Positions 1 through 44,123 of a DNA stretch of 44,261 nucleotides are shown piece after piece; the first letter of the stretch is position 1, and every line of letters starts with the position of its first letter. Source of the stretch: Escherichia phage vB_Ec-G9; sequence record PQ433351.1. One strand, 5' to 3'. The notes under the pieces were generated by a model. The model was not told where the DNA came from, searched no databases, and worked only from the letters and a program-made list of their open reading frames with translations. Made by a program: the position numbers and the translations under genes.

Positions 1-1988
1 TGGCTATTATTCAGAATGTACCGTGTCCTGCCTGTCAAAAGAATGGACATGATGTTACCGGCAACCATCTCATGATCTTTGATGATGGTGCTGGCTATTG
101 CAACCGTGGTCACTTCCACGATAACGGAAAGCCATACTACCATAAGCCCGAAGGTGGCATCGAGATAACCGAGTTGCCTATTACTGGCAATATCAAATAT
201 ACACCTTCTCAGTTCAAAGAGATGGAGAAGGAAGGGAAGATAAGCGACCTTAAGCTACGCGCCATCGCACTAGGTGGTATGCGTATGAAAGACCGTTGGG
301 AGGTTATGAATGAGCAAGAAAGGGCAGACCAAGAAGCAGATTGGAAACTTGATGTTGAATGGTTCCTCACGCTTAAGCGTAAGAACCTTGTATCCCGACA
401 CATTCGCGGCGACATCGCAGCACTATATGATGTGCGAGTGGGCCATGATGAGGAAGGAAGAGTCAATCGTCACTACTACCCCCGCTTCGAGAAAGGTGAG
501 CTAGTAGGCGCTAAGTGCCGTACCTTACCTAAAGACTTTAAGTTTGGTCATTTAGGTAAACTATTTGGTATGCAAGATCTTTTCGGTATGAATACTTTGT
601 CTCACGTGTTAGACAAGGGAAGACGAAAGGATTGCTTGCTTATTGTAGGCGGCGAACTTGATGCACTAGCAGCCCAGCAGATGCTTCTTGATTCCGCCAA
701 GGGCACTAAGTGGGAAGGACAACCATATCATGTGTGGTCTGTCAACAAGGGTGAGTCTTGCCTTGAAGAGATAGTGCAGAACCGTGAACACATCGCTCAA
801 TTCAAGAAGATTATATGGGGCTTTGATGGTGATGAGGTTGGGCAGAAGCAGAACCAACAAGCGGCTCGCCTGTTTCCTGGTAAATCCTATATCCTTGAGT
901 ATCCTTCTGGGTGCAAAGATGCTAACAAGGCATTGATGGCTGGCAAGGCTAAAGAATTTGTGGATGCTTGGTTTAATGCAAAGTCATCTGATGAAGTCTT
1001 TGGTAGCCAGATTAAATCTATCGCATCTCAAAGGGATAAGCTCAAGGCTGCACGTCCAGAGCAAGGACTATCATGGCCTTGGCCTAAGCTGAACAAGGTA
1101 ACGCTAGGTATTCGTAAGAACCAACTTATCATTGTAGGCGCAGGCTCTGGTGTAGGTAAGACTGAGTTCCTTCGTGAAGTAGTTAAGCACCTCATTGAAG
1201 AACACGGTGAATCTGTAGGCATCATTTCTACAGAAGACCCGATGGTCAAGGTGTCCCGTGCTTTTATCGGCAAGTGGATTGATAAGCGTATTGAGTTACC
1301 GCCAACCAACGACCCGAAAGAAGATGGATACCGTGAGGTGTTCGACTACACCGAGGAAGAGGCTAACGCCGCCATTGATTATGTAGCTGATACAGGTAAG
1401 CTGTTTGTAGCTGACCTAGAGGGTGACTATTCGATGGAAAAGGTAGAGCAAACTTGCCTAGAGTTTGAGGCTATGGGCATTTCTAATATCATCATTGATA
1501 ACTTAACGGGGATTAAATTAGATGAGCGTGCTTTTGGTGGGAAGGTTGGTGCACTTGATGAATGCGTCAAGCGGATTGGTACTATCAAAGACCGACACCC
1601 GGTTACTATATTCCTTGTATCACACCTTACACGTCCTCCGGCAAACCGTACCCAACACGAAGAAGGTGGCGAGGTTATCCTTTCTGACTTCCGAGGTTCA
1701 GGCGCTATCGGATTCTGGGCATCTTACGCCTTGGGGATTGAGCGTAATACAAGAGCTGAAACGCTTGACGAAAGGACTACCACGTACATCTCATGTGTCA
1801 AAGACCGCGACCAAGGAATCTGGACTGGAACCAAGGTCATGCTTAAGGGTGACATTCAAACCGGACGTTTAATGGAACCACAAGCCCGTACTAAGTCATT
1901 TGATACAGGTGAAGCAAGGCAACAAGAGGTGCCGGATTTACCGGACACTATAGAAGAGACAACCTTTGACGATGAACAGGAGTTTTAA
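1..1988 (+). CDS. DNA primase/helicase (T7 gp4-like); 5' end runs off the window start, the ATG is formed by pos 44261 + pos 1-2
   Basis: Open in frame from pos 3 with no stop; N-terminal Cys zinc ribbon CPAC...CNRGH typical of primases; Walker A GAGSGVGKT in helicase half; acidic C-terminus ending DDEQEF. Confidence 0.85.
   Translation, partial: AIIQNVPCPACQKNGHDVTGNHLMIFDDGAGYCNRGHFHDNGKPYYHKPEGGIEITELPITGNIKYTPSQFKEMEKEGKISDLKLRAIALGGMRMKDRWEVMNEQERADQEADWKLDVEWFLTLKRKNLVSRHIRGDIAALYDVRVGHDEEGRVNRHYYPRFEKGELVGAKCRTLPKDFKFGHLGKLFGMQDLFGMNTLSHVLDKGRRKDCLLIVGGELDALAAQQMLLDSAKGTKWEGQPYHVWSVNKGESCLEEIVQNREHIAQFKKIIWGFDGDEVGQKQNQQAARLFPGKSYILEYPSGCKDANKALMAGKAKEFVDAWFNAKSSDEVFGSQIKSIASQRDKLKAARPEQGLSWPWPKLNKVTLGIRKNQLIIVGAGSGVGKTEFLREVVKHLIEEHGESVGIISTEDPMVKVSRAFIGKWIDKRIELPPTNDPKEDGYREVFDYTEEEANAAIDYVADTGKLFVADLEGDYSMEKVEQTCLEFEAMGISNIIIDNLTGIKLDERAFGGKVGALDECVKRIGTIKDRHPVTIFLVSHLTRPPANRTQHEEGGEVILSDFRGSGAIGFWASYALGIERNTRAETLDERTTTYISCVKDRDQGIWTGTKVMLKGDIQTGRLMEPQARTKSFDTGEARQQEVPDLPDTIEETTFDDEQEF
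1935..1958 (+). promoter_or_regulatory. phage RNAP promoter embedded in primase/helicase 3' coding region
   Basis: GATTTACCGGACACTATAGAAGAG matches the window's promoter consensus; encodes PDTIEE in frame. Confidence 0.7.
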
Positions 1989-2149: not shown

Positions 2150-2166
2150 TGTATTTATCAGGGCTT

Positions 2167-2182
2167 GTCTCACATGTGAGAC
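2167..2182. repeat. 16-bp perfect palindrome GTCTCACATGTGAGAC (copy 1 of 7)
   Basis: Exact palindrome in intergenic gap, flanked by extra symmetric bases (GCTTG...CAGGC). Confidence 0.9.
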
Positions 2183-2221
2183 AGGCTCTTATTAAGTACA
2201 TTAAATAACTGGAGATTGATT

Positions 2222-3300: not shown

Positions 3301-3310
3301 GTCAAGGGTT

Positions 3311-3326
3311 GTCTCACACGTGAGAC
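3311..3326. repeat. palindrome variant GTCTCACACGTGAGAC (copy 2)
   Basis: One central base differs from the perfect palindrome; intergenic. Confidence 0.8.
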
Positions 3327-3357
3327 AGCCTTTCATCATATTGATTGGAGGTGCATT

Positions 3358-6616: not shown

Positions 6617-6994
6617 ATGTCAATGGTGACTACTCTGGTATTCGTAGCTCAATACTTTCGTGGTTTGGCTAACAAGTTCAAAGCTAAGGCTATCAAAGCT
6701 ATTGAGTCTCGCATTGAAGCAGTACAGGCAGAGCAGTTTGAAGTTGAAGAACATCGTAGTTCTCAAATGATTGACTGCCACAATCGCTACTATGCATCTC
6801 GTGATGACCTTAATGCACGTCAAGTCAAAGAGGTAGAAGAGATGATGGCACGTCACCAGCAAGAGCGAGACAATCTGAAGGCAGACTTTGAAGAGAACAA
6901 AGCATCCATTGCACTGGTACATCAAGCTGCATCTGACAGCCTGAAGAAAGAGATTGTTATGCTGGAGATTGAACTGGACAATCTGACCAAATAA
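6617..6994 (+). CDS. hypothetical coiled-coil protein (125 aa)
   Basis: RBS AGGAG upstream; charged heptad-like sequence. Confidence 0.6.
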   Translation: MSMVTTLVFVAQYFRGLANKFKAKAIKAIESRIEAVQAEQFEVEEHRSSQMIDCHNRYYASRDDLNARQVKEVEEMMARHQQERDNLKADFEENKASIALVHQAASDSLKKEIVMLEIELDNLTK

Positions 6995-8103: not shown

Positions 8104-8104
8104 A

Positions 8105-8120
8105 GTCTCACATGTGAGAC
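8105..8120. repeat. 16-bp perfect palindrome GTCTCACATGTGAGAC (copy 3)
   Basis: Exact; lies 15 bp upstream of promoter at 8136. Confidence 0.9.
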
Positions 8121-8135
8121 AAATCGGTGTCCGGT

Positions 8136-8159
8136 ATTTACTGGACACTATAGAAGAGA
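8136..8159 (+). promoter_or_regulatory. phage RNAP promoter
   Basis: TATTTACTGGACACTATAGAAGAG. Confidence 0.8.
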
Positions 8160-24896: not shown

Positions 24897-24913
24897 TACC
24901 TAACTCAAGGCTT

Positions 24914-24929
24914 GTCTCACATGTGAGAC
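24914..24929. repeat. 16-bp perfect palindrome GTCTCACATGTGAGAC (copy 4)
   Basis: Exact; flanks GCTTG...CAGGT; between the two large internal virion protein genes. Confidence 0.9.
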
Positions 24930-24960
24930 AGGTCTTTATGATAGGCACTATGGAGGATTT

Positions 24961-29607: not shown

Positions 29608-31505
29608 TGGCTAAGGCAAGAGAATCACAAGCGGAGGCTCTTGCCAGATGGGAGATGCTACAGGAGTTACAGCAGACCTTTCCTTACACAGCGGAAGGTT
29701 TGCTTCTCTTTGCAGATACAGTTATCCATAACTTGATTGCAGGCAACCCTCATCTGATTCGTATGCAGGCTGATATCTTGAAGTTCCTATTCTACGGACA
29801 TAAGTATCGCCTCATCGAAGCGCCTCGTGGTATCGCTAAGACAACACTATCAGCAATCTATACGGTATTCCGTATTATCCATGAACCGCATAAGCGTATC
29901 ATGGTTGTATCCCAAAACGCCAAGCGAGCAGAGGAAATCGCAGGTTGGGTAGTTAAAATCTTCCGTGGCCTAGACTTTCTTGAGTTTATGCTACCAGACA
30001 TCTACGCAGGGGACCGTGCATCCGTTAAGGCGTTTGAGATTCATTACACCCTACGTGGTAGTGATAAGTCTCCTTCTGTATCCTGTTACTCAATCGAAGC
30101 AGGTATGCAGGGTGCTCGTGCTGATATTATTCTAGCGGATGACGTAGAGTCGATGCAGAATGCTCGTACGGCAGCGGGCCGTGCCTTGCTTGAGGAACTG
30201 ACTAAGGAGTTTGAATCTATCAACCAGTTTGGGGATATCATTTACCTTGGTACACCTCAGAACGTAAACTCTATCTACAACAACCTACCTGCTCGTGGTT
30301 ACTCTGTTCGTATCTGGACTGCGCGTTACCCTTCAGTAGAGCAAGAGCAATGTTATGGCGACTTCCTTGCACCTATGATTGTTCAAGATATGAAGGACAA
30401 CCCAGCACTTCGCTCAGGGTACGGGTTGGATGGTAATAGTGGTGCACCTTGTGCCCCTGAAATGTATGATGATGAAGTCCTGATTGAGAAGGAAATCTCT
30501 CAGGGTGCTGCTAAGTTCCAGCTTCAGTTCATGCTTAACACTCGCATGATGGATGCTGACAGATACCCATTACGCCTGAACAATCTAATCTTCACCTCGT
30601 TTGGTACAGAGGAAGTCCCTGTGATGCCTACGTGGAGTAATGATTCCATAAACATCATTGGTGATGCACCTAAGTATGGTAACAAGCCTACGGATTTCAT
30701 GTACAGACCTGTAGCTCGCCCATACGAATGGGGTGCTGTCTCCCGCAAGATTATGTATATTGACCCTGCGGGTGGTGGTAAGAACGGAGATGAGACGGGT
30801 GTAGCCATCGTATTCCTGCACGGCACATTCATTTATGTGTATCAGTGCTTTGGTGTACCTGGTGGATACCGAGAGTCGTCCCTGAATCGCATTGTGCAGG
30901 CCGCAAAGCAGGCGGGTGTTAAAGAGGTATTCATTGAGAAGAACTTTGGTCATGGCGCGTTTGAGGCGGTAATTAAGCCGTACTTTGAACGAGAGTGGCC
31001 TGTAACTCTGGAAGAGGATTACGCCACCGGACAGAAAGAGTTGCGTATCATTGAGACGCTGGAGCCGCTCATGGCAGCCCATAGGCTTATCTTCAATGCA
31101 GAGATGGTGAAGTCAGACTTCGAGTCGGTACAGCACTATCCGCTTGAACTACGCATGTCCTACAGTCTTTTCAATCAAATGTCGAACATAACGATTGAGA
31201 AGAACAGCCTCCGGCACGATGACCGCCTAGACGCCCTGTATGGCGCTATACGGCAATTAACTTCTCAGATAGACTATGACGAGGTTACACGGATTAATCG
31301 CCTCAGAGCGCAGGAGATGCGCGATTACATCCATGCTATGAACACACCTCATCTACGCAGGGCAATGCTATATGGAGATTACGGTACTGAGCGAAGAGTG
31401 ACCAACACTTCCGTAGCGATGCAGCAGCGAGTTTACGGGCAGAACTACCGAAATAAATCGGCAAGCAGAAATACACTTTCTGCAAGGATTTCAAGGACTT
31501 ATTAA
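29607..31505 (+). CDS. terminase large subunit
   Basis: ATPase motif region GHKYRLIEAPRGIAKTT; size about 630 aa; position. Confidence 0.9.
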   Translation: MAKARESQAEALARWEMLQELQQTFPYTAEGLLLFADTVIHNLIAGNPHLIRMQADILKFLFYGHKYRLIEAPRGIAKTTLSAIYTVFRIIHEPHKRIMVVSQNAKRAEEIAGWVVKIFRGLDFLEFMLPDIYAGDRASVKAFEIHYTLRGSDKSPSVSCYSIEAGMQGARADIILADDVESMQNARTAAGRALLEELTKEFESINQFGDIIYLGTPQNVNSIYNNLPARGYSVRIWTARYPSVEQEQCYGDFLAPMIVQDMKDNPALRSGYGLDGNSGAPCAPEMYDDEVLIEKEISQGAAKFQLQFMLNTRMMDADRYPLRLNNLIFTSFGTEEVPVMPTWSNDSINIIGDAPKYGNKPTDFMYRPVARPYEWGAVSRKIMYIDPAGGGKNGDETGVAIVFLHGTFIYVYQCFGVPGGYRESSLNRIVQAAKQAGVKEVFIEKNFGHGAFEAVIKPYFEREWPVTLEEDYATGQKELRIIETLEPLMAAHRLIFNAEMVKSDFESVQHYPLELRMSYSLFNQMSNITIEKNSLRHDDRLDALYGAIRQLTSQIDYDEVTRINRLRAQEMRDYIHAMNTPHLRRAMLYGDYGTERRVTNTSVAMQQRVYGQNYRNKSASRNTLSARISRTY

Positions 31506-32249: not shown

Positions 32250-32594
32250 ATGCTTAATAAATACTTCAAGCGTAAAGAGTTCGCTTGTCGTTGTGGGTGC
32301 GGTACATCCACTGTTGATGCTGAATTACTACAGGTAGTCGCAGATGTGCGTGAGCACTTTGGTTCTCCTGTAGTTATCACTTCGGGGCATCGCTGTGCTA
32401 AGCACAATGCTAATGTAGGAGGAGCTAAGAACTCCATGCATCTTACTGGTAAGGCTGCTGACATTAAGGTACGAGGCATCTTACCTTCTGATGTACATAA
32501 GTATCTTACTGATAAGTACCAAGGCAAATATGGGATTGGTAAGTATAACTCCTTTACTCATATTGATGTACGTGACGGGTGTGCACGATGGTAG
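32250..32594 (+). CDS. endolysin, zinc peptidase M15-type (L-alanyl-D-glutamate or D-Ala-D-Ala peptidase fold)
   Basis: SGHRCAKHNANVGGAKNSMHLTGKAADI: H-x-H / D zinc-binding pattern of VanY/M15 peptidases. Confidence 0.75.
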   Translation: MLNKYFKRKEFACRCGCGTSTVDAELLQVVADVREHFGSPVVITSGHRCAKHNANVGGAKNSMHLTGKAADIKVRGILPSDVHKYLTDKYQGKYGIGKYNSFTHIDVRDGCARW

Positions 32595-37154: not shown

Positions 37155-37616
37155 ATGGAAGTTTGGAGGCCTATTGCTGGTATACCAGATTACATGGTTT
37201 CCTCCTTTGGTCGTGTTAGATCTCATAAAAGAGGTAAGGTTACTATACTAAACCCTCCGCACGACAAAGGAGGTTATCGTAATGTTGTGCTACGTGTTAA
37301 TGGTGAAAAGATAAATCGCAAGGTACATAGGCTTGTGGCAGAGGCTTTCTTACCTAACCCTCACGGTTTACCTCAAGTAAATCACAAGGATGAAGTAAGA
37401 GACAATAATCATGTAAGTAATCTGGAGTGGTGTGATTGTGCATACAACGTAGATTACTCTCAAGCAGCTACTTATACTGTGATGTGCCCTAAAGGTAATA
37501 TCTTAGTAGTAAGGAATGTGGCTAAGTTTTGTAGGGAAAACGGATTAAGCAGTGGTTCTTTTACAGATATGCTTAAGGGAAGACGTAAGCAACATAAGGG
37601 TTATCGCTTAGTGTAA
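37155..37616 (+). CDS. HNH homing endonuclease (NUMOD4 + HNH)
   Basis: WRPIAGIPDYMVSSFGRV (NUMOD4-like) and VNHKDEVRDNNHVSNLEW (HNH). Confidence 0.8.
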   Translation: MEVWRPIAGIPDYMVSSFGRVRSHKRGKVTILNPPHDKGGYRNVVLRVNGEKINRKVHRLVAEAFLPNPHGLPQVNHKDEVRDNNHVSNLEWCDCAYNVDYSQAATYTVMCPKGNILVVRNVAKFCRENGLSSGSFTDMLKGRRKQHKGYRLV

Positions 37617-37669: not shown

Positions 37670-37980
37670 TCAAGTGTCTCGCCCTCGCCCTCGCCGGGTT
37701 GTCCCCATAGGGTGGCCTGAGGGAATCCGTCGAAGACGGGCAGGGCTGATGTCCTCCTTGGCTAGTACAAGGGAAGACCGAGGGAACGCCTAGGACGGCC
37801 TAGGGAATGGTTTAGTGGCGGACAAGGTGATTGCCTTAGTGAAGCCTCTTAGTACATTCCTGAGGCCATTCAGGGCGTTTATGAGGCATTGACAGGGTGG
37901 GCGTGGGTGGGCTATCTGTTCGTTTCGTTCACTCCGCTTGCGCTACGTTCACTCGCTCACGTGTACCTTAGGTTGTTCCT
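37670..37980. other. GC-rich non-coding segment; candidate terminal-repeat / genome-end region
   Basis: No ORF of 60 aa or more on either strand in 37617-38418; composition unlike flanking genes; short direct repeat CGTTCACTC twice. Confidence 0.3.
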
Positions 37981-37990
37981 TGATGGATAG

Positions 37991-38093
37991 CTTAGGTTAG
38001 CCTTAGTGGACTACCTTAGTTATAACCTTAGTGCTTATCTTAGTAATAGCTTAGTAGTGTACCTTAGTAAGTCTTAGTGTCTTCTCTTAGTGA
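37991..38093. repeat. array of about 9 short [CT]CTTAG[GT] heptamer-like repeats at about 12-bp period
   Basis: GCTTAGG, CCTTAGTG, CCTTAGTT, CCTTAGTG, TCTTAGTA, GCTTAGTA, CCTTAGTA, TCTTAGTG, TCTTAGTG; further scattered copies to 38410. Confidence 0.8.
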
Positions 38094-38238
38094 TTGCACA
38101 TGCAAGCATGTAAGATGCCATTAGGTCGCGGTCGGTAGACCGCTAAAGAAAGAGAATAGTAATAAGATGCAGTAGGAGGAACACCAGAAACCTAGCCAAC
38201 CTAGCCTATCCTAGCTCTGTATCTATTGCTTTTCCTTA

Positions 38239-38254
38239 GTCTCACATGTTAGAC
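38239..38254. repeat. palindrome variant GTCTCACATGTTAGAC (copy 5)
   Basis: One half-site base changed. Confidence 0.75.
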
Positions 38255-38288
38255 AACCTAGCTTATTCTTAGTGATGATAACTTAGTG

Positions 38289-38317
38289 TTGACAAGATAA
38301 TCTTAGTGTAATACTAT
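38289..38317 (+). promoter_or_regulatory. host sigma70-type early promoter candidate
   Basis: TTGACA - 17 bp - TACTAT. Confidence 0.55.
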
Positions 38318-38389
38318 GCATCACGTAGGCGGTGCTGAGGCACCTAGTAGCCAGCTAGTAAGGCATACGAAGAGACTAGCGCTTACATT

Positions 38390-38401
38390 GCTCTTTAACA
38401 A
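38390..38401 (+). promoter_or_regulatory. boxA-like antitermination element (copy 1)
   Basis: GCTCTTTAACAA, extended TTGCTCTTTAACAATTTG, identical to E. coli rrn boxA core. Confidence 0.6.
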
Positions 38402-38460
38402 TTTGCTTAGTGTAACCTATGTATGCCGTGGTTAATTACTTATTGAATGAGGGATTAACT

Positions 38461-38872: not shown

Positions 38873-38901
38873 TTGACAGCCACGGCATACAAGGTTACAT
38901 T
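38873..38901 (+). promoter_or_regulatory. host sigma70-type early promoter candidate
   Basis: TTGACA - 17 bp - TACATT. Confidence 0.5.
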
Positions 38902-38934: not shown

Positions 38935-38946
38935 GCTCTTTAACAA
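38935..38946 (+). promoter_or_regulatory. boxA-like antitermination element (copy 2)
   Basis: CCGCTCTTTAACAAGATG. Confidence 0.55.
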
Positions 38947-38993
38947 GATGGCTAGTGTCTTGATAGGCTAACTGACTAACTAAGGTAATTATC

Positions 38994-39146: not shown

Positions 39147-39158
39147 GCTCTTTAACAA
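39147..39158 (+). promoter_or_regulatory. boxA-like antitermination element (copy 3)
   Basis: TTGCTCTTTAACAATTTG, 18/18 identical to copy 1. Confidence 0.6.
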
Positions 39159-39253
39159 TTTGGAAGGTAGCTTCTTAGTCGGGATAGGTTAGACCTAGGG
39201 CATTCTTTGAGTGCCCTATAATGTAACCTAACTAACTAATGAGGATTAATAAC

Positions 39254-39610
39254 ATGGCTATGTCTAATATGACTTACTCTCAGGTTTACAACACCGCTCA
39301 CGCTGCATTAGTTGAACGTATCTGGGATGATGCTATTGATTGTATCGATAACGCACATGATGCAATCCATGAGGTGGCGGATAGTGCTGTACCAATCTAT
39401 TATGCTGACATCTTCTCAGTGATGGCCAGTGAAGGCATCGACCACTTCTTCGAGGATTCTGGCTTAATGCCAGACACTAAGGATGTGACGGTCGTACTAC
39501 AAGCCCGTATTTATGAACAACTCACCATTGATTTATGGGAACGTGTTCAAGATATGATTGATGCGTACATCGACTCAGCCGAAGATTTAGAAGAAGAAGA
39601 GGAAGAATAA
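39254..39610 (+). CDS. ocr: Ocr-like DNA-mimic anti-restriction protein (T7 gene 0.3 homologue)
   Basis: MAMSNMTY... [18 protein letters not shown]...[13 protein letters not shown]...[15 protein letters not shown] closely matches T7 Ocr as recalled; acidic EEEEEE C-terminus; RBS GAGGA. Confidence 0.85.
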
Positions 39611-39612
39611 AG

Positions 39613-39726
39613 ATGGAAAAGCAATATAACTTTATCTTTTCTGATGGTGTAACCTTGAAATGCTCCTTACGATTCGCCCAGATTCGCGAGGAAGTGCTAG
39701 GTACTACATATAAACTATTTATCTGA
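39613..39726 (+). CDS. early hypothetical small protein (37 aa)
   Basis: ATG 3 nt after ocr stop; below ORF-track cutoff. Confidence 0.3.
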   Translation: MEKQYNFIFSDGVTLKCSLRFAQIREEVLGTTYKLFI

Positions 39727-39740
39727 CACTATAAGAGAGG
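39716..39740 (+). promoter_or_regulatory. phage-promoter-like variant (ACTATAAGAG)
   Basis: TATTTATCTGACACTATAAGAGAGG: upstream half matches, +1 region differs. Confidence 0.35.
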
Positions 39741-39805
39741 ATTTAACAGGGCGTTACTTGTTAGCGCCCGATTAAGTTTATCTCAATAAACCAAATAGGT
39801 GACTT

Positions 39806-40690
39806 ATGACTACTGAAAACACCCTCCTGTCTGTTCGTGAAGCTGCAACCGCTGAGATCAAGCAACACTTAGACAATATCGGCACTTCTTACATCAAAGT
39901 TGGCGCTTGTCTTAATGAGTTACGCGGTGACTTTGAAGGTCAAAAAGACTTTTTGGCTTATGTAGAATCAGAATTTGGAATCAAGAAAGCACAATGTTAC
40001 AAGCTGATGAGTGTAGCCCGTGTCTTTGAAGGCGATGATCGCTTTAAAGGCGTGGCGATGCGTGTAATGCTGGCACTTGTTCCTTTCGCTGATGAAAATA
40101 TCATCATGGAGAAAGCCGCAGAACTTGCCGCAGCGGGCAAGCTGGACACTAACGCCGTGAACGCCCTGATTGAGCCTAAGAAAGAGCCAAAGTCTGAGAC
40201 GGTACAATCCAAGGCTGAGCCTGTAAAACCGAAGGAGAACGCGACTGCGGCCGCAGAATTACAGGAAACGCAAGCGCCGCAGGAAGTGCCGCCAGCAAGT
40301 GAGTCGGATGACGACAAATCAGCACCGTGGGAAGAGGAAAGCAAGCCGGAAGCGCCAAAGGCCGCGCCACTGGACAACACGGCTAACACTGAAAACGCCG
40401 CTATGGCTGGCCTACTGGCACAAATTAAGGCACTGACTGAGCAATTACAGGCAGCTAACGACCGCATCGCCGCCCTAACCAGTGCACGTGAAAGCAAGAA
40501 GGCAGCCGCGCCTATGCTTCCCCAATTCAAATCTAAATGTCTCTATGCTCGCTTGGGTTTAAGCGCTGAGGAGGCAACGAAGAAAACAGCAGTTAACAAG
40601 GCACGCCGCGAACTGGTTAAGCTAGGCTATGGTGAAGGCCATGAAGCATGGGCCTTAATCTCTGAGGCAGTAGAAGAATTAACTAAGTAA
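39806..40690 (+). CDS. early protein with low-complexity Pro/Glu/Lys/Ala-rich central linker (294 aa)
   Basis: ORF immediately upstream of RNAP gene (position of T7 gene 0.7); noticeably GC-richer codon usage; no kinase motifs seen. Confidence 0.6.
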   Translation: MTTENTLLSVREAATAEIKQHLDNIGTSYIKVGACLNELRGDFEGQKDFLAYVESEFGIKKAQCYKLMSVARVFEGDDRFKGVAMRVMLALVPFADENIIMEKAAELAAAGKLDTNAVNALIEPKKEPKSETVQSKAEPVKPKENATAAAELQETQAPQEVPPASESDDDKSAPWEEESKPEAPKAAPLDNTANTENAAMAGLLAQIKALTEQLQAANDRIAALTSARESKKAAAPMLPQFKSKCLYARLGLSAEEATKKTAVNKARRELVKLGYGEGHEAWALISEAVEELTK

Positions 40691-40753: not shown

Positions 40754-43381
40754 ATGCAAGACTTACACGCTATTCAACTTCAACTTGAAGAAGAAATGTT
40801 TAACGGCGGTATCCGTCGCTTTGAAGCGGACCAACAGCGCCAGATTGCATCCGGTAATGAATCAGACACGGCATGGAATCGCCGCTTATTGTCCGAGTTA
40901 ATTGCGCCAATGGCTGAAGGTATTCAGGCATACAAGGAAGAGTATGAAGGTAAAAGAGGCCGTGCACCGCGTGCATTAGCTTTCATTAACTGCGTAGAAA
41001 ATGAAGTGGCAGCGTATATCACGATGAAAATCGTTATGGATATGCTGAACACGGATGTAACCTTGCAGGCTATAGCCATGAATGTAGCTGACCGCATTGA
41101 GGACCAAGTACGTTTTAGCAAGCTGGAAGGTCACGCCGCCAAATACTTTGAGAAAGTTAAGAAGTCACTTAAGGCAAGTAAGACTAAATCATATCGCCAT
41201 GCGCACAACGTAGCGGTCGTGGCTGAGAAGTCAGTAGCTGACCGTGACGCTGATTTCTCTCGCTGGGAGGCGTGGCCTAAAGATACCTTGCTACAAATCG
41301 GTATGACCTTGCTAGAAATACTGGAAAATAGTGTATTCTTCAATGGTCAGCCTGTCTTTCTTCGCACCTTGCGCACTAATGGTGGCAAGCATGGCGTTTA
41401 CTACTTACAGACTAGCGAACACGTAGGTGAATGGATAACTGCATTTAAAGAGCACGTAGCTCAGCTGAGTCCAGCCTATGCACCTTGCGTTATTCCTCCG
41501 CGTCCGTGGGTTTCTCCGTTTAATGGTGGCTTTCACACCGAGAAGGTGGCGAGTCGTATTCGTCTGGTTAAAGGAAACCGCGAGCACGTCCGCAAGCTGA
41601 CCAAAAAGCAAATGCCAGCGGTTTACAAGGCTGTTAACGCTTTGCAGGCGACTAAGTGGCAGGTTAATAAAGAGGTTTTGCAGGTAGTAGAGGACGTTAT
41701 CCGTCTCGACCTTGGTTATGGTGTGCCTTCCTTTAAACCACTCATCGACCGTGAGAACAAGCCAGCTAATCCAGTGCCGTTAGAGTTCCAGCACCTGCGA
41801 GGCCGTGAACTTAAAGAGATGCTAACGCCAGAACAGTGGCAAGCTTTTATAAACTGGAAAGGAGAATGTACCAAGCTGTATACCGCTGAAACTAAGCGCG
41901 GAAGCAAGTCGGCGGCGACCGTTCGCATGGTAGGACAAGCGCGCAAGTACAGCCAGTTCGACGCGATTTATTTCGTGTATGCACTGGATAGCCGTTCACG
42001 CGTTTATGCGCAATCTAGCACGCTCTCTCCGCAATCAAACGACTTAGGCAAGGCATTGCTCCGTTTTACCGAAGGGCAGCGTCTTGATAGCGCTGAGGCG
42101 CTTAAGTGGTTTTTGGTGAACGGGGCGAATAACTGGGGTTGGGATAAGAAAACTTTTGACGTGCGCACCGCTAACGTGCTGGATAGCGAATTTCAAGACA
42201 TGTGCCGCGACATTGCAGCCGACCCGCTGACCTTCACTCAATGGGTAAATGCTGATTCCCCTTACGGCTTCCTTGCATGGTGCTTTGAATATGCGCGTTA
42301 TCTGGATGCACTGGATGAAGGCACGCAAGACCAATTCATGACGCACCTACCCGTCCATCAAGACGGTAGTTGCTCTGGTATCCAGCACTATAGCGCGATG
42401 TTACGCGATGAAGTAGGTGCGAAAGCAGTAAACCTTAAGCCTTCTGACTCCCCTCAAGATATTTATGGCGCGGTTGCGCAGGTTGTTATCCAGAAGAATT
42501 ACGCCTACATGAATGCAGATGATGCAGAGACTTTCACATCTGGAAGCGTCACACTTACAGGTGCAGAACTGCGTAGCATGGCTAGTGCGTGGGATATGAT
42601 AGGAATCACTCGCGGCCTGACCAAAAAGCCCGTAATGACACTACCTTATGGCAGCACACGTCTAACCTGCCGTGAATCAGTGATTGATTATATCGTTGAT
42701 TTGGAAGAAAAAGAGGCCCAACGAGCTATTGCCGAAGGGCGGACGGCGAATCCCGTGCACCCTTTTGATAATGACCGCAAAGACTACCTTACACCTGGTG
42801 CAGCCTACAACTATATGACGGCTTTAATTTGGCCTTCTATCTCTGAGGTTGTTAAAGCTCCTATAGTGGCGATGAAGATGATTCGCCAGCTTGCACGTTT
42901 CGCAGCTAAAAGGAATGAAGGGTTAGAATACACCTTGCCAACTGGCTTCATCTTGCAACAAAAGATAATGGCTACCGATATGCTCCGTGTATCCACTTGC
43001 TTGATGGGTGAAATCAAGATGAGTCTACAGATTGAAACTGATGTAGTGGATGAAACGGCAATGATGGGCGCTGCCGCTCCTAACTTTGTTCACGGGCACG
43101 ATGCTAGTCACCTTATATTAACGGTATGTGACCTTGTTGATAAAGGGATTACATCTATCGCAGTAATTCATGATTCTTTTGGCACTCATGCAGGCCGTAC
43201 AGCCGATCTACGCAACAGCTTAAGGGCAGAAATGGTGAAGATGTATCAAGGCCGTAATGCACTGCAAAGCCTGCTAGATGAGCACGAAGAACGCTGGTTA
43301 GTTGATACAGGAATCCAAGTACCAGAGCAAGGAGAGTTTGACCTTAACGAAATCTTAGTATCTGACTATTGCTTCGCATAA
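40754..43381 (+). CDS. single-subunit DNA-dependent RNA polymerase (T7/SP6 type)
   Basis: [39 protein letters not shown] and C-terminal SDYCFA match T7 RNAP catalytic and C-terminal motifs; 875 aa. Confidence 0.95.
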
Positions 43382-43389
43382 TATTAATA

Positions 43390-43420
43390 GGCCATTCCTT
43401 CGGGAGTGGCCTTTCTTTTA
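43390..43420 (+). terminator. strong intrinsic terminator with UUCG tetraloop after RNAP gene
   Basis: GGCCATTCC-TTCG-GGAGTGGCC (9-bp stem, one G.U) followed by TTTCTTTT. Confidence 0.8.
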
Positions 43421-43454
43421 CCTACTACCTGTAACATTTCATTAACATAAACGT

Positions 43455-43470
43455 GTCTAACATGTGAGAC
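43455..43470. repeat. palindrome variant GTCTAACATGTGAGAC (copy 6)
   Basis: Mirror-image variant of copy 5; abuts promoter at 43471. Confidence 0.75.
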
Positions 43471-43495
43471 TTATTTACCGGACACTATAGGATAG
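43471..43495 (+). promoter_or_regulatory. phage RNAP promoter
   Basis: TTATTTACCGGACACTATAGGATAG. Confidence 0.7.
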
Positions 43496-43630: not shown

Positions 43631-43640
43631 GATCTAGGTT

Positions 43641-43656
43641 GTCTCACATGTGAGAC
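43641..43656. repeat. 16-bp perfect palindrome GTCTCACATGTGAGAC (copy 7)
   Basis: Exact; 4 bp upstream of promoter at 43661. Confidence 0.9.
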
Positions 43657-43660
43657 TTCG

Positions 43661-43684
43661 TATTTACCGGACAGTATAGATAAG
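43661..43684 (+). promoter_or_regulatory. phage RNAP promoter (variant -5 G)
   Basis: TATTTACCGGACAGTATAGATAAG. Confidence 0.6.
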
Positions 43685-43706: not shown

Positions 43707-44123
43707 ATGCGTAAATCATTAGCTCAAAGAGTAGAGCAAGCAGGTTATACTATACAAGACGACGGCACTATCAAAGGTAAACGAGGTAACACCTTGAAAC
43801 CCTGGCTTCAATCTTCAGGATATCCAGTTGTAAATATAGTATTCAAGAAAGGTACAAGAACAACTACCCTTGTGCATCGCATAATTGCTAGTAAGTATTG
43901 TCCTTGCTCTGACCCATTGGCTAATGATGTAAACCACAAAGACGGAAACAAGACTAATAATGCAGCTTCTAATCTTGAATGGATTACACGTAGGCAGAAC
44001 CGTAATCACTATTTAGGTTTTGAGGACTATATGATACTTACGGCAGATGATGCCCGTAAGAAGAATAATGAGCGCACTATTGCTCGACGTAAATTACTTA
44101 AACAGTTGAATAATAAGGATTAA
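43707..44123 (+). CDS. HNH homing endonuclease
   Basis: LVHRIIASKY ... VNHKDGNKTNNAASNLEW; RBS GGAGG. Confidence 0.8.
   Translation: MRKSLAQRVEQAGYTIQDDGTIKGKRGNTLKPWLQSSGYPVVNIVFKKGTRTTTLVHRIIASKYCPCSDPLANDVNHKDGNKTNNAASNLEWITRRQNRNHYLGFEDYMILTADDARKKNNERTIARRKLLKQLNNKD

What the first reader, a model, noticed from the sequence alone, without database searches (positions are those of the whole stretch)
39806..40690. GC-rich early gene with low-complexity linker occupying the position of T7 gene 0.7
The 294-aa protein sits just upstream of the RNAP gene and has a compact N-terminal domain, a long Pro/Glu/Lys/Ala-rich linker and a C-terminal domain. Its codon usage (GCG, CCG, CGC) is visibly GC-richer than the late genes. 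No protein-kinase motifs were seen, so it is not an obvious gp0.7 homologue. Possible host-takeover or anti-defence factor, likely horizontally acquired.
Basis: inference. Interest (0 to 1): 0.5.

Follow-up and report, generated by a model that had tools for sequence, protein, structure and literature searches.

The report
Phage DNA-binding protein with own palindromes
The gene just before the RNA polymerase gene of this K1E/SP6-like phage most likely encodes a site-specific DNA-binding protein, with a degenerate chaperone-recruiting (J-like) tail, that recognises an 18-bp palindrome repeated eight times on the phage's own genome; it does not look like a foreign host-takeover gene.

Summary
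The ORF is real: 39806-40690 (+), 294 aa. It is the orthologue of K1E/SP6 gp6 (PHROG 4571, function unknown). Its GC excess is modest (50.3% vs 45.0%), and its GC3 matches the neighbouring RNA polymerase gene. The gene is syntenic across two Autographiviridae subfamilies, so horizontal acquisition is not supported.

The architecture is:
- an N-terminal helical domain (DUF3102-like, closest folds KorB/ParB DNA-binding domains);
- a disordered Pro/Glu/Lys/Ala linker;
- a long helix, probably a coiled coil;
- a C-terminal J-domain fold whose HPD motif is replaced by Y-G-E.

Unexpectedly, every gp6-bearing phage examined carries a multi-copy, mostly intergenic palindrome. The window has TGTCTCAC-N2-GTGAGACA eight times (0.05 expected). 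Sites lie at the early promoter region, directly 5' of the first phage promoters, and inside terminator-like hairpins.

Across 46 orthologues, residue 66 (Lys here, in the predicted recognition helix) is the column that best tracks the palindrome's inner arm:
- K with CTCAC;
- N or H mostly with C(C/T)AAC;
- E with G at arm position 6;
- R with other arms.

About nine of ten changes coincide on a tree.

Best reading: a KorB-like, site-specific organiser or regulator of the phage chromosome. The role of the J-like domain is unknown.

The parts
39806..40690 (+). Gene 6 (orthologue of K1E/SP6 gp6), 294 aa, early gene
   Evidence: The ORF was listed. It is 91-97% identical at the DNA level to Vectrevirus genomes. 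It matches K1E gene 6 and SP6 gene 6 and PHROG 4571 at E 1.3e-130.
39830..40171 (+). N-terminal helical domain (residues 9-122): DUF3102-like, KorB/ParB-type putative DNA-binding domain
39986..40027 (+). Predicted recognition helix (residues 61-74, KAQCYKLMSVARVF). Lys66 is the codon AAG at 40001-40003.
   Evidence: The model has helix 46-57, a turn (G58-I-K) and helix 61-74. Residue 66 is the only column that is homogeneous within, and exclusive to, each palindrome class. It also ranks first for a one-to-one relation with palindrome class.
40172..40390 (+). Disordered Pro/Glu/Lys/Ala-rich linker (residues 123-195)
   Evidence: pLDDT is 48-72 and the model shows no secondary structure here. 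GC of this segment is 0.569.
40391..40507 (+). Long helix (residues 196-234), probable coiled-coil dimerisation element
   Evidence: The model has a single 39-residue helix. Leu210 is nearly invariant. A few homologues hit bZIP, TSC22 or other zipper families. Dimerisation is inferred.
40511..40684 (+). C-terminal J-like domain (residues 236-293). The HPD position is occupied by Y275-G276-E277 (40628-40636).
38238..38255 (.). Palindrome copy AGTCTCACATGTTAGACA, upstream of the early promoters. It overlaps a -35-like TAGACA and lies 34 bp 5' of TTGACA-17-TACTAT.
   Evidence: As RNA it folds no better than shuffled sequence (z -0.01). The syntenic copy in K1E is at 631.
43454..43471 (.). Palindrome copy TGTCTAACATGTGAGACT. 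It follows the early terminator and abuts a phage-promoter-like sequence at 43472-43495.
   Evidence: RNA fold z is -0.91. The K1E copy is at 6804.
43640..43657 (.). Palindrome copy TGTCTCACATGTGAGACT, 3 bp 5' of a phage-promoter-like sequence at 43661-43684
   Evidence: RNA fold z is -0.30. The K1E copy is at 6986.
598..615 (.). Palindrome copy TGTCTCACGTGTTAGACA inside the primase/helicase gene
   Evidence: Copies at the same place in K1E (8004) and SP6 (7070).
2166..2183 (.). Palindrome copy TGTCTCACATGTGAGACA at the tip of a 13-bp hairpin followed by a U-rich tail (terminator-like)
   Evidence: RNA fold is -25.2 kcal/mol, z -6.95.
3310..3327 (.). Palindrome copy TGTCTCACACGTGAGACA at the tip of a 13-bp hairpin followed by a U-rich tail
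   Evidence: RNA fold z is -4.39.
8104..8121 (.). Palindrome copy AGTCTCACATGTGAGACA, about 14 bp 5' of the phage promoter at 8138-8156
   Evidence: RNA fold z is -1.25.
24913..24930 (.). Palindrome copy TGTCTCACATGTGAGACA at the tip of a 13-bp hairpin, between the two large internal-virion-protein genes
   Evidence: RNA fold z is -4.68. The K1E copy is at 32585 and the SP6 copy at 30568.

Best explanation
Gene 6 encodes an early protein that probably acts as a dimer and binds DNA sequence-specifically. Its N-terminal helix-turn-helix domain has a KorB/ParB-like fold (DUF3102-like). This domain recognises the 18-bp palindrome (T/A)GTCTCAC-N2-GTGAGAC(A/T), present eight times on the phage's own chromosome. 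Lys66 in the recognition helix reads the inner part of each half-site.

The sites lie at boundaries of transcription units:
- over or just upstream of the host-type early promoters;
- directly 5' of the first phage-polymerase promoters after the early terminator;
- at the tips of three terminator-like hairpins.

The most likely role is therefore a KorB-like global regulator or organiser of phage transcription, and possibly replication, at the switch from early to middle expression.

The disordered linker and the long helix would space and dimerise the protein. The C-terminal J-fold domain has lost the HPD motif (it has YGE within a conserved GYGxGH loop). It probably serves as a protein-interaction module and is not a canonical activator of the DnaK ATPase.

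Shown here: the domain folds, the sites, their positions, and the coevolution of residue 66 with the site sequence. Inferred: binding itself, dimerisation, the regulatory outcome, and the partner of the J-like domain.
For: 1. Fold.
- DUF3102 matches 20 of 57 homologues.

2. Sites.
- The 18-mer occurs 7 times at 3 or fewer mismatches, against 0.05 expected. An eighth copy is at 598.
- Shuffled genomes and the first 12 kb of T7, which lacks gp6, have no repeated palindrome family.
- K1E has 8 copies and SP6 at least 5, at syntenic positions.

3. Coevolution.
- In 27 orthologues, residue 66 is the only one of 294 columns that is homogeneous and different between the A-type and B-type palindrome classes: K in 14 sequences at 36-100% identity, N in 10.
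- In the wider survey, 52 loci with a readable residue 66 could be assigned a palindrome class. All K loci have CTCAC, including the deep lineages L063 and L069.
- N goes with CCAAC, and independently with CTAAC in L007, a lineage about 23% identical.
- E goes with G at arm position 6 in two unrelated lineages (L006 and the Marinomonas phages).
- H goes with A at that position: SP6 and L051, read by hand.
- R goes with four other arms, together with changes at Q63.
- On a tree built without the recognition helix, residue 66 changes 10 times, the motif class 10 times, and the joint state only 11 times.
- Column 66 ranks first for a one-to-one relation with motif class.

4. The conservation is not simply RNA structure.
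- Five of the eight copies fold no better than shuffled sequence (z 0 to -1.25).
- Their single-arm substitutions are uncompensated, and all are C to A at arm position 6.

5. Positions next to promoters and terminators.

6. The J-fold of the C-domain and the HPD to YGE replacement.
Against: - There is no direct binding evidence.
- The similarity to KorB/ParB is structural only and moderate. Foldseek E-values are not significant. A profile of the N-domain finds no solved relative by sequence. The window protein itself does not reach DUF3102 at E <= 1.
- Three copies sit in strong hairpins whose extended stems use G.U wobble pairs and are followed by U-rich tails. All SP6 copies carry the same T.G asymmetry. 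Part of the constraint is therefore at the RNA level.
- The spacer is 2 nt in some lineages and 3 nt in others, and both occur in Proteus phage Pm5460. That is awkward for a rigid dimer.
- Arg66 lineages do not follow a single base rule.
- Gene and palindrome are both traits of the same clade, so their co-occurrence alone is confounded by descent.
- Marinomonas phages carry a second repeated palindrome.
- The regulatory outcome (repression, activation, roadblock or origin function) is not determined.
Confidence: 0.6

Rival explanations
1. The palindromes are RNA-level elements: terminators, pause sites, or processing and stability hairpins for phage transcripts. They would be recognised by the phage RNA polymerase or an RNase. 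On this view gp6 does something unrelated, and the residue-66 correlation is hitch-hiking within clades.
For: - Three copies form 13-bp hairpins with G.U wobble extensions and U-rich tails, with z -4.4 to -7.0.
- SP6 copies keep a T.G pair that would still pair in RNA.
- One Pm5460 copy lies inside an annotated terminator.
- Arm changes between lineages are compensatory.
Against: - Five of the eight copies do not fold better than shuffled sequence, yet they keep the sequence.
- Single-arm substitutions are uncompensated.
- The arm sequence is identical in E. coli, Erwinia, Vibrio and Pseudomonas phages whose gp6 proteins are only 36-46% identical. Structure alone does not require that.
- Residue 66 and the motif change together on about 9 of 10 branches, including independent K to N and K to E events.
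- One copy lies upstream of the early promoters, where little transcription is expected.
Confidence: 0.15
2. gp6 is a bona fide J-domain co-chaperone, like Rki of phage RB43. It would recruit and activate host DnaK, either at specific DNA sites or on specific clients. An SV40 T-antigen-like or lambda O/P-like remodelling step at a replication origin is one such possibility.
For: - The C-domain has the J fold and its core sequence signature.
- Helix II is basic: K259, K260, K265, R267, R268 and K272 (read from the sequence).
- Rare distant members keep HPD (P0250, P0255) or have NPD (P0145).
- Two sites precede the two promoters right after the polymerase gene. That is the position of the primary origin in T7 (for the T7 map, for the window).
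Against: - HPD is replaced by YGE in the window, and HPD is missing from the C-terminal domain in 134 of the 136 family representatives.
- A His to Gln change in HPD alone abolishes J-domain function (PMC3486835).
- The loop between helices II and III is about 5 residues shorter than in solved J-domains.
Confidence: 0.12
3. One reading: a horizontally acquired host-takeover or anti-defence factor that occupies the slot of T7 gene 0.7.
For: - It is an early gene immediately upstream of the polymerase gene.
- GC and GC3 are somewhat raised.
- No function has been reported for it.
Against: - The gene is syntenic and vertically conserved across two subfamilies.
- GC3 equals that of the polymerase gene.
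- It coexists with a kinase gene in Vibrio phage AS51.
- ocr is already present upstream.
- The protein has a DNA-binding fold, and the matching sites are on the phage genome, not the host's.
Confidence: 0.08

Closest known systems
KorB of IncP plasmid RK2 (ParB-family global repressor)
   Same: - Both have a palindromic operator present in many copies on the element's own genome. In both, the copies lie at variable distances from promoters.
- Both are encoded by the element they regulate.
   Different: - gp6 has no N-terminal ParB/Srx CTPase domain and no KorB-type C-terminal dimerisation domain.
- There is no detectable sequence similarity.
- gp6 instead carries a disordered linker, a long helix and a J-like domain.
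- Regulation by gp6 is inferred, not shown.
Chromosomal ParB/Spo0J with parS
   Same: - The half-site TGTCTCAC differs from the parS half-site TGTTTCAC at one base. This comparison is from my own knowledge of parS and was not tested here.
- Both have several dispersed copies.
   Different: - The gp6 site has a 2-3 bp central spacer, making it 18-19 bp against 16 bp for parS.
- gp6 has no CTPase or spreading domain.
- The setting is a lytic phage with no partition ATPase.
SV40/polyomavirus large T antigen
   Different: - T antigen has a functional HPD, a different origin-binding fold and a helicase domain.
- gp6 has neither an HPD nor a helicase.
Rki (gp057w) of T4-like phage RB43, the first functional phage J-domain protein (PMC3486835)
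   Same: Both are phage-encoded early proteins with a J-fold domain.
   Different: Rki has a working HPD and acts on DnaK and sigma-32. It has no DNA-binding domain. gp6 lacks HPD.
J-like domains without HPD, such as Tim16/Pam16
   Different: Tim16 works by pairing with the true J-domain of Tim14. No such partner is known for gp6.
T7 gp0.7 (protein kinase and host shut-off)
   Same: Both genes sit immediately upstream of the RNA polymerase gene in the early operon.
   Different: There is no kinase domain and no similarity. Both genes coexist in Vibrio phage AS51.

Membership tests
PHROG 4571 / K1E-SP6 gp6 family | Full-length sequence similarity to the family profile | tested here: met
   E 1.3e-130 over residues 1-294. 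92.9% amino-acid identity to K1E gp6 and 65% to SP6 gp6.
K1E-SP6 gp6 family | Position in the early operon upstream of the single-subunit RNA polymerase gene | tested here: met
   Seen in the window, K1E, SP6, AS51, CB5A and Achelous, and in metagenomic contigs.
J-domain proteins (Hsp40 co-chaperones) | Four-helix J fold with the KAYRxLA-type core | tested here: met
   [not shown]
J-domain proteins (Hsp40 co-chaperones) | His-Pro-Asp tripeptide in the loop between helices II and III | tested here: not met
   HPD aligns with Y275-G276-E277 and the loop is about 5 residues shorter. Only 2 of the 136 family representatives have HPD in this domain.
J-domain proteins (Hsp40 co-chaperones) | Stimulation of the Hsp70/DnaK ATPase | not testable with these tools
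   This needs biochemistry.
ParB/KorB family | Helix-turn-helix DNA-binding domain of the ParB/KorB fold | tested here: inconclusive
   [not shown]
ParB/KorB family | N-terminal ParB/Srx (CTP-binding) domain | tested here: not met
   The protein begins with the helix-turn-helix domain at about residue 10. No ParB-type Pfam family matches the window protein or 57 homologues.
ParB/KorB family | Cognate palindromic sites in several copies on the same replicon | tested here: met
   There are eight copies in the window. Such sites are conserved in all gp6-bearing genomes examined and coevolve with residue 66. Binding itself was not tested.
Pfam DUF3102 (PF11300) | Match to the family profile | tested here: inconclusive
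   The window protein has no hit at E <= 1. 20 of 57 homologues match, best E 2.2e-6. Foldseek finds viral DUF3102 proteins at E 1.8e-4.
T7 gp0.7 protein kinase | Protein-kinase domain | tested here: not met
   No kinase family matches in Pfam at E <= 1.

The most novel reading that the evidence does not exclude
gp6 and its dispersed palindromes may form a previously unrecognised cis/trans system shared by a large part of the Autographiviridae. In it, a site-specific DNA-binding protein would tether a chaperone-type module to defined points of the phage chromosome. That module descends from a J-domain and might still engage DnaK, a host J-protein or a polymerase. The system would remodel or mark promoter, terminator and origin complexes, making it a bacteriophage counterpart of the DNA-binding-plus-J-domain logic of polyomavirus T antigen. 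It would carry a simple, re-programmable recognition code at residue 66.
Probability: 0.2. Interest if true: 0.85.

Novelty: new variant of a known kind. Interest (0 to 1): 0.68.

Why it matters
SP6- and K1E-like phages are classical models, sources of the SP6 RNA polymerase, and candidates for phage therapy. They lack homologues of T7 gp0.7 and gp2, and how they control the early-to-middle switch is not known (this is from my own knowledge).

This work assigns the most conserved orphan early gene of the group to a DNA-binding role. It also identifies the probable binding sites and a one-residue specificity determinant. Together these give a directly testable handle on that regulation.

It would also add a new domain combination (KorB/ParB-like helix-turn-helix plus an HPD-less J fold). 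And it would offer a natural set of orthogonal protein/operator pairs (K, N, H, E and R variants) that could be useful for engineering.

Tried and rejected
- Single-sequence searches of Pfam and PDB for the window protein gave only noise.
- NCBIfam gave nothing consistent.
- A profile of the N-domain alone found no solved relative by sequence.
- Foldseek against PDB gave no significant match, although KorB was among its top four.
- The afdb50 fold library was not available.
- Rfam found no known RNA family in the window.
- Literature searches found no functional description. I searched for gp6 of SP6/K1E, DUF3102, phage J-domain proteins, and the exact palindrome sequences. One genome paper calls gp6 'of unidentified function' and tentatively lists it against T7 gene 0.3, which is not supported because a true ocr gene is present.
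- I rejected horizontal acquisition, on synteny and on GC3 equal to the polymerase gene.
- I rejected kinase or gp0.7 homology.
- I rejected the public annotations 'late transcription factor VLTF-4', 'endolysin/andolysin' and 'similar to DNA polymerase' found in several records. Nothing here supports them; they probably stem from the low-complexity linker or from propagated errors.
- A first attempt to scan viral contigs with the full 112-sequence alignment failed because it had no conserved stretch. Sub-alignments worked.
- Several metagenomic contigs were too short to classify their palindromes.

Full report
WHAT THE WINDOW IS. The 44,261-bp window is a circularly permuted genome of a K1E-like podovirus (Vectrevirus, Molineuxvirinae, Autographiviridae). 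The region of the finding is 90-97% identical at the DNA level to some 75 Vectrevirus records. All large genes are on the + strand. Ten copies of a phage promoter (TTACTGGACACTATAGAAG-like) are present, against 0.04 expected.

THE OBSERVATION. The ORF at 39806-40690 (+) is real: ATG start, 294 aa, with AGGTGA at 39797-39802. It ends 63 nt before an 875-aa single-subunit RNA polymerase gene at 40754-43381.

It lies downstream of two good sigma-70-like promoters (TTGACA-17-TACTAT at 38289-38317 and TTGACA-17-TACATT at 38873-38901). It lies upstream of a strong terminator at 43389-43412. It is therefore part of the early, host-transcribed operon.

The three-part architecture is confirmed by an AlphaFold model built on 112 diverse homologues (mean pLDDT 83):
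- residues 10-122 are helical;
- residues 123-195 are disordered;
- residues 196-234 form one long helix;
- residues 239-293 form a small helical domain.

GC is 0.503 against 0.450 for the genome, which is +1.55 SD among ORFs. About half of the excess follows from the Ala/Glu/Pro-rich composition (expected GC 0.475). The rest is a genuine shift in synonymous codons: GC3 is 0.483 against 0.403 expected, with CCG, CGC and GGC over-used. However, GC3 is the same in the adjacent polymerase gene (0.474), the terminase (0.488) and the capsid gene (0.473). Other 1-kb windows are as GC-rich or richer. The gene is not a compositional island.

CONSERVATION. The protein belongs to PHROG 4571, function unknown (E 1.3e-130). 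It is the orthologue of K1E gene 6 and SP6 gene 6.

tblastn finds it in 213 phage records from E. coli, Klebsiella, Salmonella, Proteus, Erwinia, Pectobacterium, Vibrio, Pseudomonas, Marinomonas, Aeromonas and Ralstonia phages. An exhaustive search finds 136 representatives at 50% identity.

Wherever context is available, the gene lies in the early region upstream of the polymerase gene. In Vibrio phage AS51 a kinase gene lies between it and the polymerase gene, so it is not a stand-in for gp0.7. The window also has a true ocr gene at 39239-39610 (Pfam E 6e-42). Horizontal acquisition is therefore not supported.

DOMAINS. The window protein alone matches nothing in Pfam or PDB. Scanning 57 homologues individually gives DUF3102 in 20 and DnaJ in 6.

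C-terminal domain:
- A profile of the family hits more than 25 solved J-domains, best E 4.4e-5.
- The defining HPD tripeptide is absent. In the profile alignment it corresponds to Y275-G276-E277, inside a conserved GYGxGH loop about five residues shorter than in true J-domains.
- Of 136 family representatives, only two have HPD in this domain and one has NPD.
- A single His to Gln change in HPD inactivates a J-domain (PMC3486835).
- This is therefore a J-like domain and not a canonical co-chaperone module.

N-terminal domain:
- Foldseek ranks KorB among its top four but without significance.
- There is no sequence-level link.
- On its own this is moderate evidence for a ParB/KorB-type helix-turn-helix. 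The model's helix 46-57, turn (G58), helix 61-74 fits the classical motif, which places Lys66 at a canonical base-contacting position. That placement rests on established knowledge of HTH proteins, not on a test here.

THE PALINDROMES. I looked for a possible operator and found an 18-bp palindrome, TGTCTCACATGTGAGACA. It occurs seven times at 3 or fewer mismatches, against 0.05 expected. An eighth copy lies in the primase/helicase gene. The copies are at 598, 2166, 3310, 8104, 24913, 38238, 43454 and 43640.

Seven are intergenic:
- One overlaps a -35-like hexamer and lies 34 bp 5' of the first strong early promoter.
- Two lie right after the early terminator, each abutting a phage-promoter-like sequence.
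- One lies about 14 bp 5' of the promoter at 8138.
- Three form the tips of 13-bp hairpins followed by U-rich tails.

K1E has eight copies and SP6 at least five, at syntenic places. Shuffled genomes and the first 12 kb of T7, which has no gp6, have no repeated palindrome.

Every gp6-bearing genome or contig long enough to judge has such a family, anchored by an invariant GT:
- GTCTCAC-N2-GTGAGAC in Vectrevirus, Era103 and the deep lineages L063 and L069;
- the same arms with a 3-nt spacer in Vibrio and Pseudomonas phages;
- GTCCAAC-N2-GTTGGAC in the Salmonella, Klebsiella, Lelliottia, Pectobacterium and Proteus group;
- TGTCTAAC..GTTGGACA in SP6;
- GTCTAAC in L007, TGTCTGAC in L006 and TGTCTACC in L051;
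- GGTTCGAG in Marinomonas phages;
- several other arms in Arg-type lineages.

THE LINK BETWEEN PROTEIN AND SITE. In an alignment of 27 orthologues, residue 66 is the only one of 294 columns that is homogeneous within, and different between, the two main palindrome classes. It is Lys in 14 sequences that are only 36-100% identical to each other. It is Asn in 10 sequences, some of which are 70-74% identical to the window protein.

In the wider survey, 52 loci with a readable residue 66 could be assigned a palindrome class:
- Every Lys protein goes with CTCAC.
- Asn goes with C(C/T)AAC in two unrelated lineages.
- Glu goes with a G at arm position 6 in two unrelated lineages.
- His goes with an A there, in SP6 and (by eye) in L051.
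- Arg goes with four other arms, together with changes at Gln63.

The tree and column-ranking tests used 46 orthologues. On a neighbour-joining tree built without the recognition helix, residue 66 changes 10 times, the motif 10 times, and the joint state only 11 times. Almost every change of one therefore coincides with a change of the other.

Column 66 ranks first for a one-to-one relation with motif class. Positions 63 and 85/86 are among the next. The chemistry is plausible by inference: Lys or Arg with G, Asn with A, Glu with C.

DNA OR RNA? Both levels seem to matter.

For RNA:
- Three copies are embedded in strong hairpins whose extended stems use G.U pairs (z -4.4 to -7.0).
- SP6 copies share a T.G asymmetry.

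For DNA:
- Five copies fold no better than shuffled sequence (z 0 to -1.25).
- Their single-arm substitutions are uncompensated and always C to A at arm position 6.
- One copy lies upstream of the early promoters.
- A protein residue tracks the sequence.

I conclude that the core is a protein recognition site, and that some copies have been built into terminator-like hairpins. Rfam has no family for it.

MECHANISM, WITH THE LEVEL OF SUPPORT.
- Well supported: gp6 is a conserved, vertically inherited early protein with an HTH-type N-domain, a disordered linker, a long helix and an HPD-less J fold. The phage genome carries cognate palindromes whose sequence coevolves with residue 66.
- Inferred: gp6 binds these sites as a dimer. 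Because the sites sit at the early promoter, the first phage promoters and terminator-like hairpins, it would act as a KorB-like global regulator or organiser at the early-to-middle transition.
- Open: whether it represses, activates, blocks read-through or marks an origin, and what the J-like domain binds.

NOVELTY. None of the eight full-text searches I ran (of ten allowed) found these palindromes, or any function for this protein. One genome paper explicitly calls gp6 of unidentified function. The library does not cover most subscription journals, including the original SP6/K1-5 genome papers, so an earlier mention of the repeats cannot be excluded. I rate this a new variant of a known kind: a site-specific HTH regulator with dispersed operators, in a new domain combination.

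Noticed in passing
window 39716-39739 and 39749-39769: A degenerate phage-promoter-like sequence (TATTTATCTGACACTATAAGAGAG) lies about 70 bp upstream of gene 6, overlapping the end of a 37-codon ORF. It is followed by an 8-bp GC-rich hairpin (GGGCGTTACTTGTTAGCGCCC). It could give gene 6 and the polymerase gene some phage-polymerase-driven expression, or the hairpin could be an RNA processing site.
   Followed up: no
window 37155-37616 and 43707-44123: Two HNH homing-endonuclease genes flank the early region. The first matches NUMOD4, HNH_3 and an I-HmuI-like domain. The second matches HNH_3 at E 8e-9. The second sits right after the palindrome/promoter pair at 43640-43684, where K1E has a small gene 8.
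   Followed up: partly
window 598-615: One palindrome copy lies inside the primase/helicase coding sequence and is conserved at the same place in K1E (8004) and SP6 (7070). It could mark an internal promoter or start, as with T7 gene 4A/4B, or simply be a binding site tolerated within coding sequence.
   Followed up: no
window 37830-38330: There is a dense array of short CTTAGT(G)-type direct repeats (families D3, D5, D9 and D10) in the non-coding region ahead of the early promoters. It is probably the repeat array next to the genome end, as in T7-like phages.
   Followed up: no
window 38935-38966, 38390-38421, 39147-39178: A 'GCTCTTTAACAA' box is repeated three times just upstream of early genes (family D1). 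It may be a conserved leader or RNA processing element of the early transcripts.
   Followed up: no
homologues P0129-P0233 (e.g. L007 2967-4505): Most non-enterobacterial homologues carry an extra N-terminal region of about 70-220 residues. It has a recurring '...LKDAK...(A)RTKxAF...' pattern and no Pfam match. The window protein and its close relatives lack this region.
   Followed up: partly
L014 (Marinomonas phage CB5A), L047: Besides GGTTCGAGATCTCGAACC, these phages carry a second repeated 12-bp palindrome, ATGTTATAACAT, in 3-4 copies. Which one, if either, is the gp6 site there is open.
   Followed up: no
public records KY295893, KY295891/NC_047806, OR594181, ON624112: The orthologues are annotated as 'late transcription factor VLTF-4', 'andolysin/endolysin', 'similar to DNA polymerase' or 'late transcription factor'. 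None of the analyses here supports these names.
   Followed up: partly
L013 (Vibrio phage AS51) 1021-2884: The gp6 homologue is followed by a gene annotated as a kinase before the RNA polymerase gene. The polymerase gene is split into two ORFs in that record.
   Followed up: no
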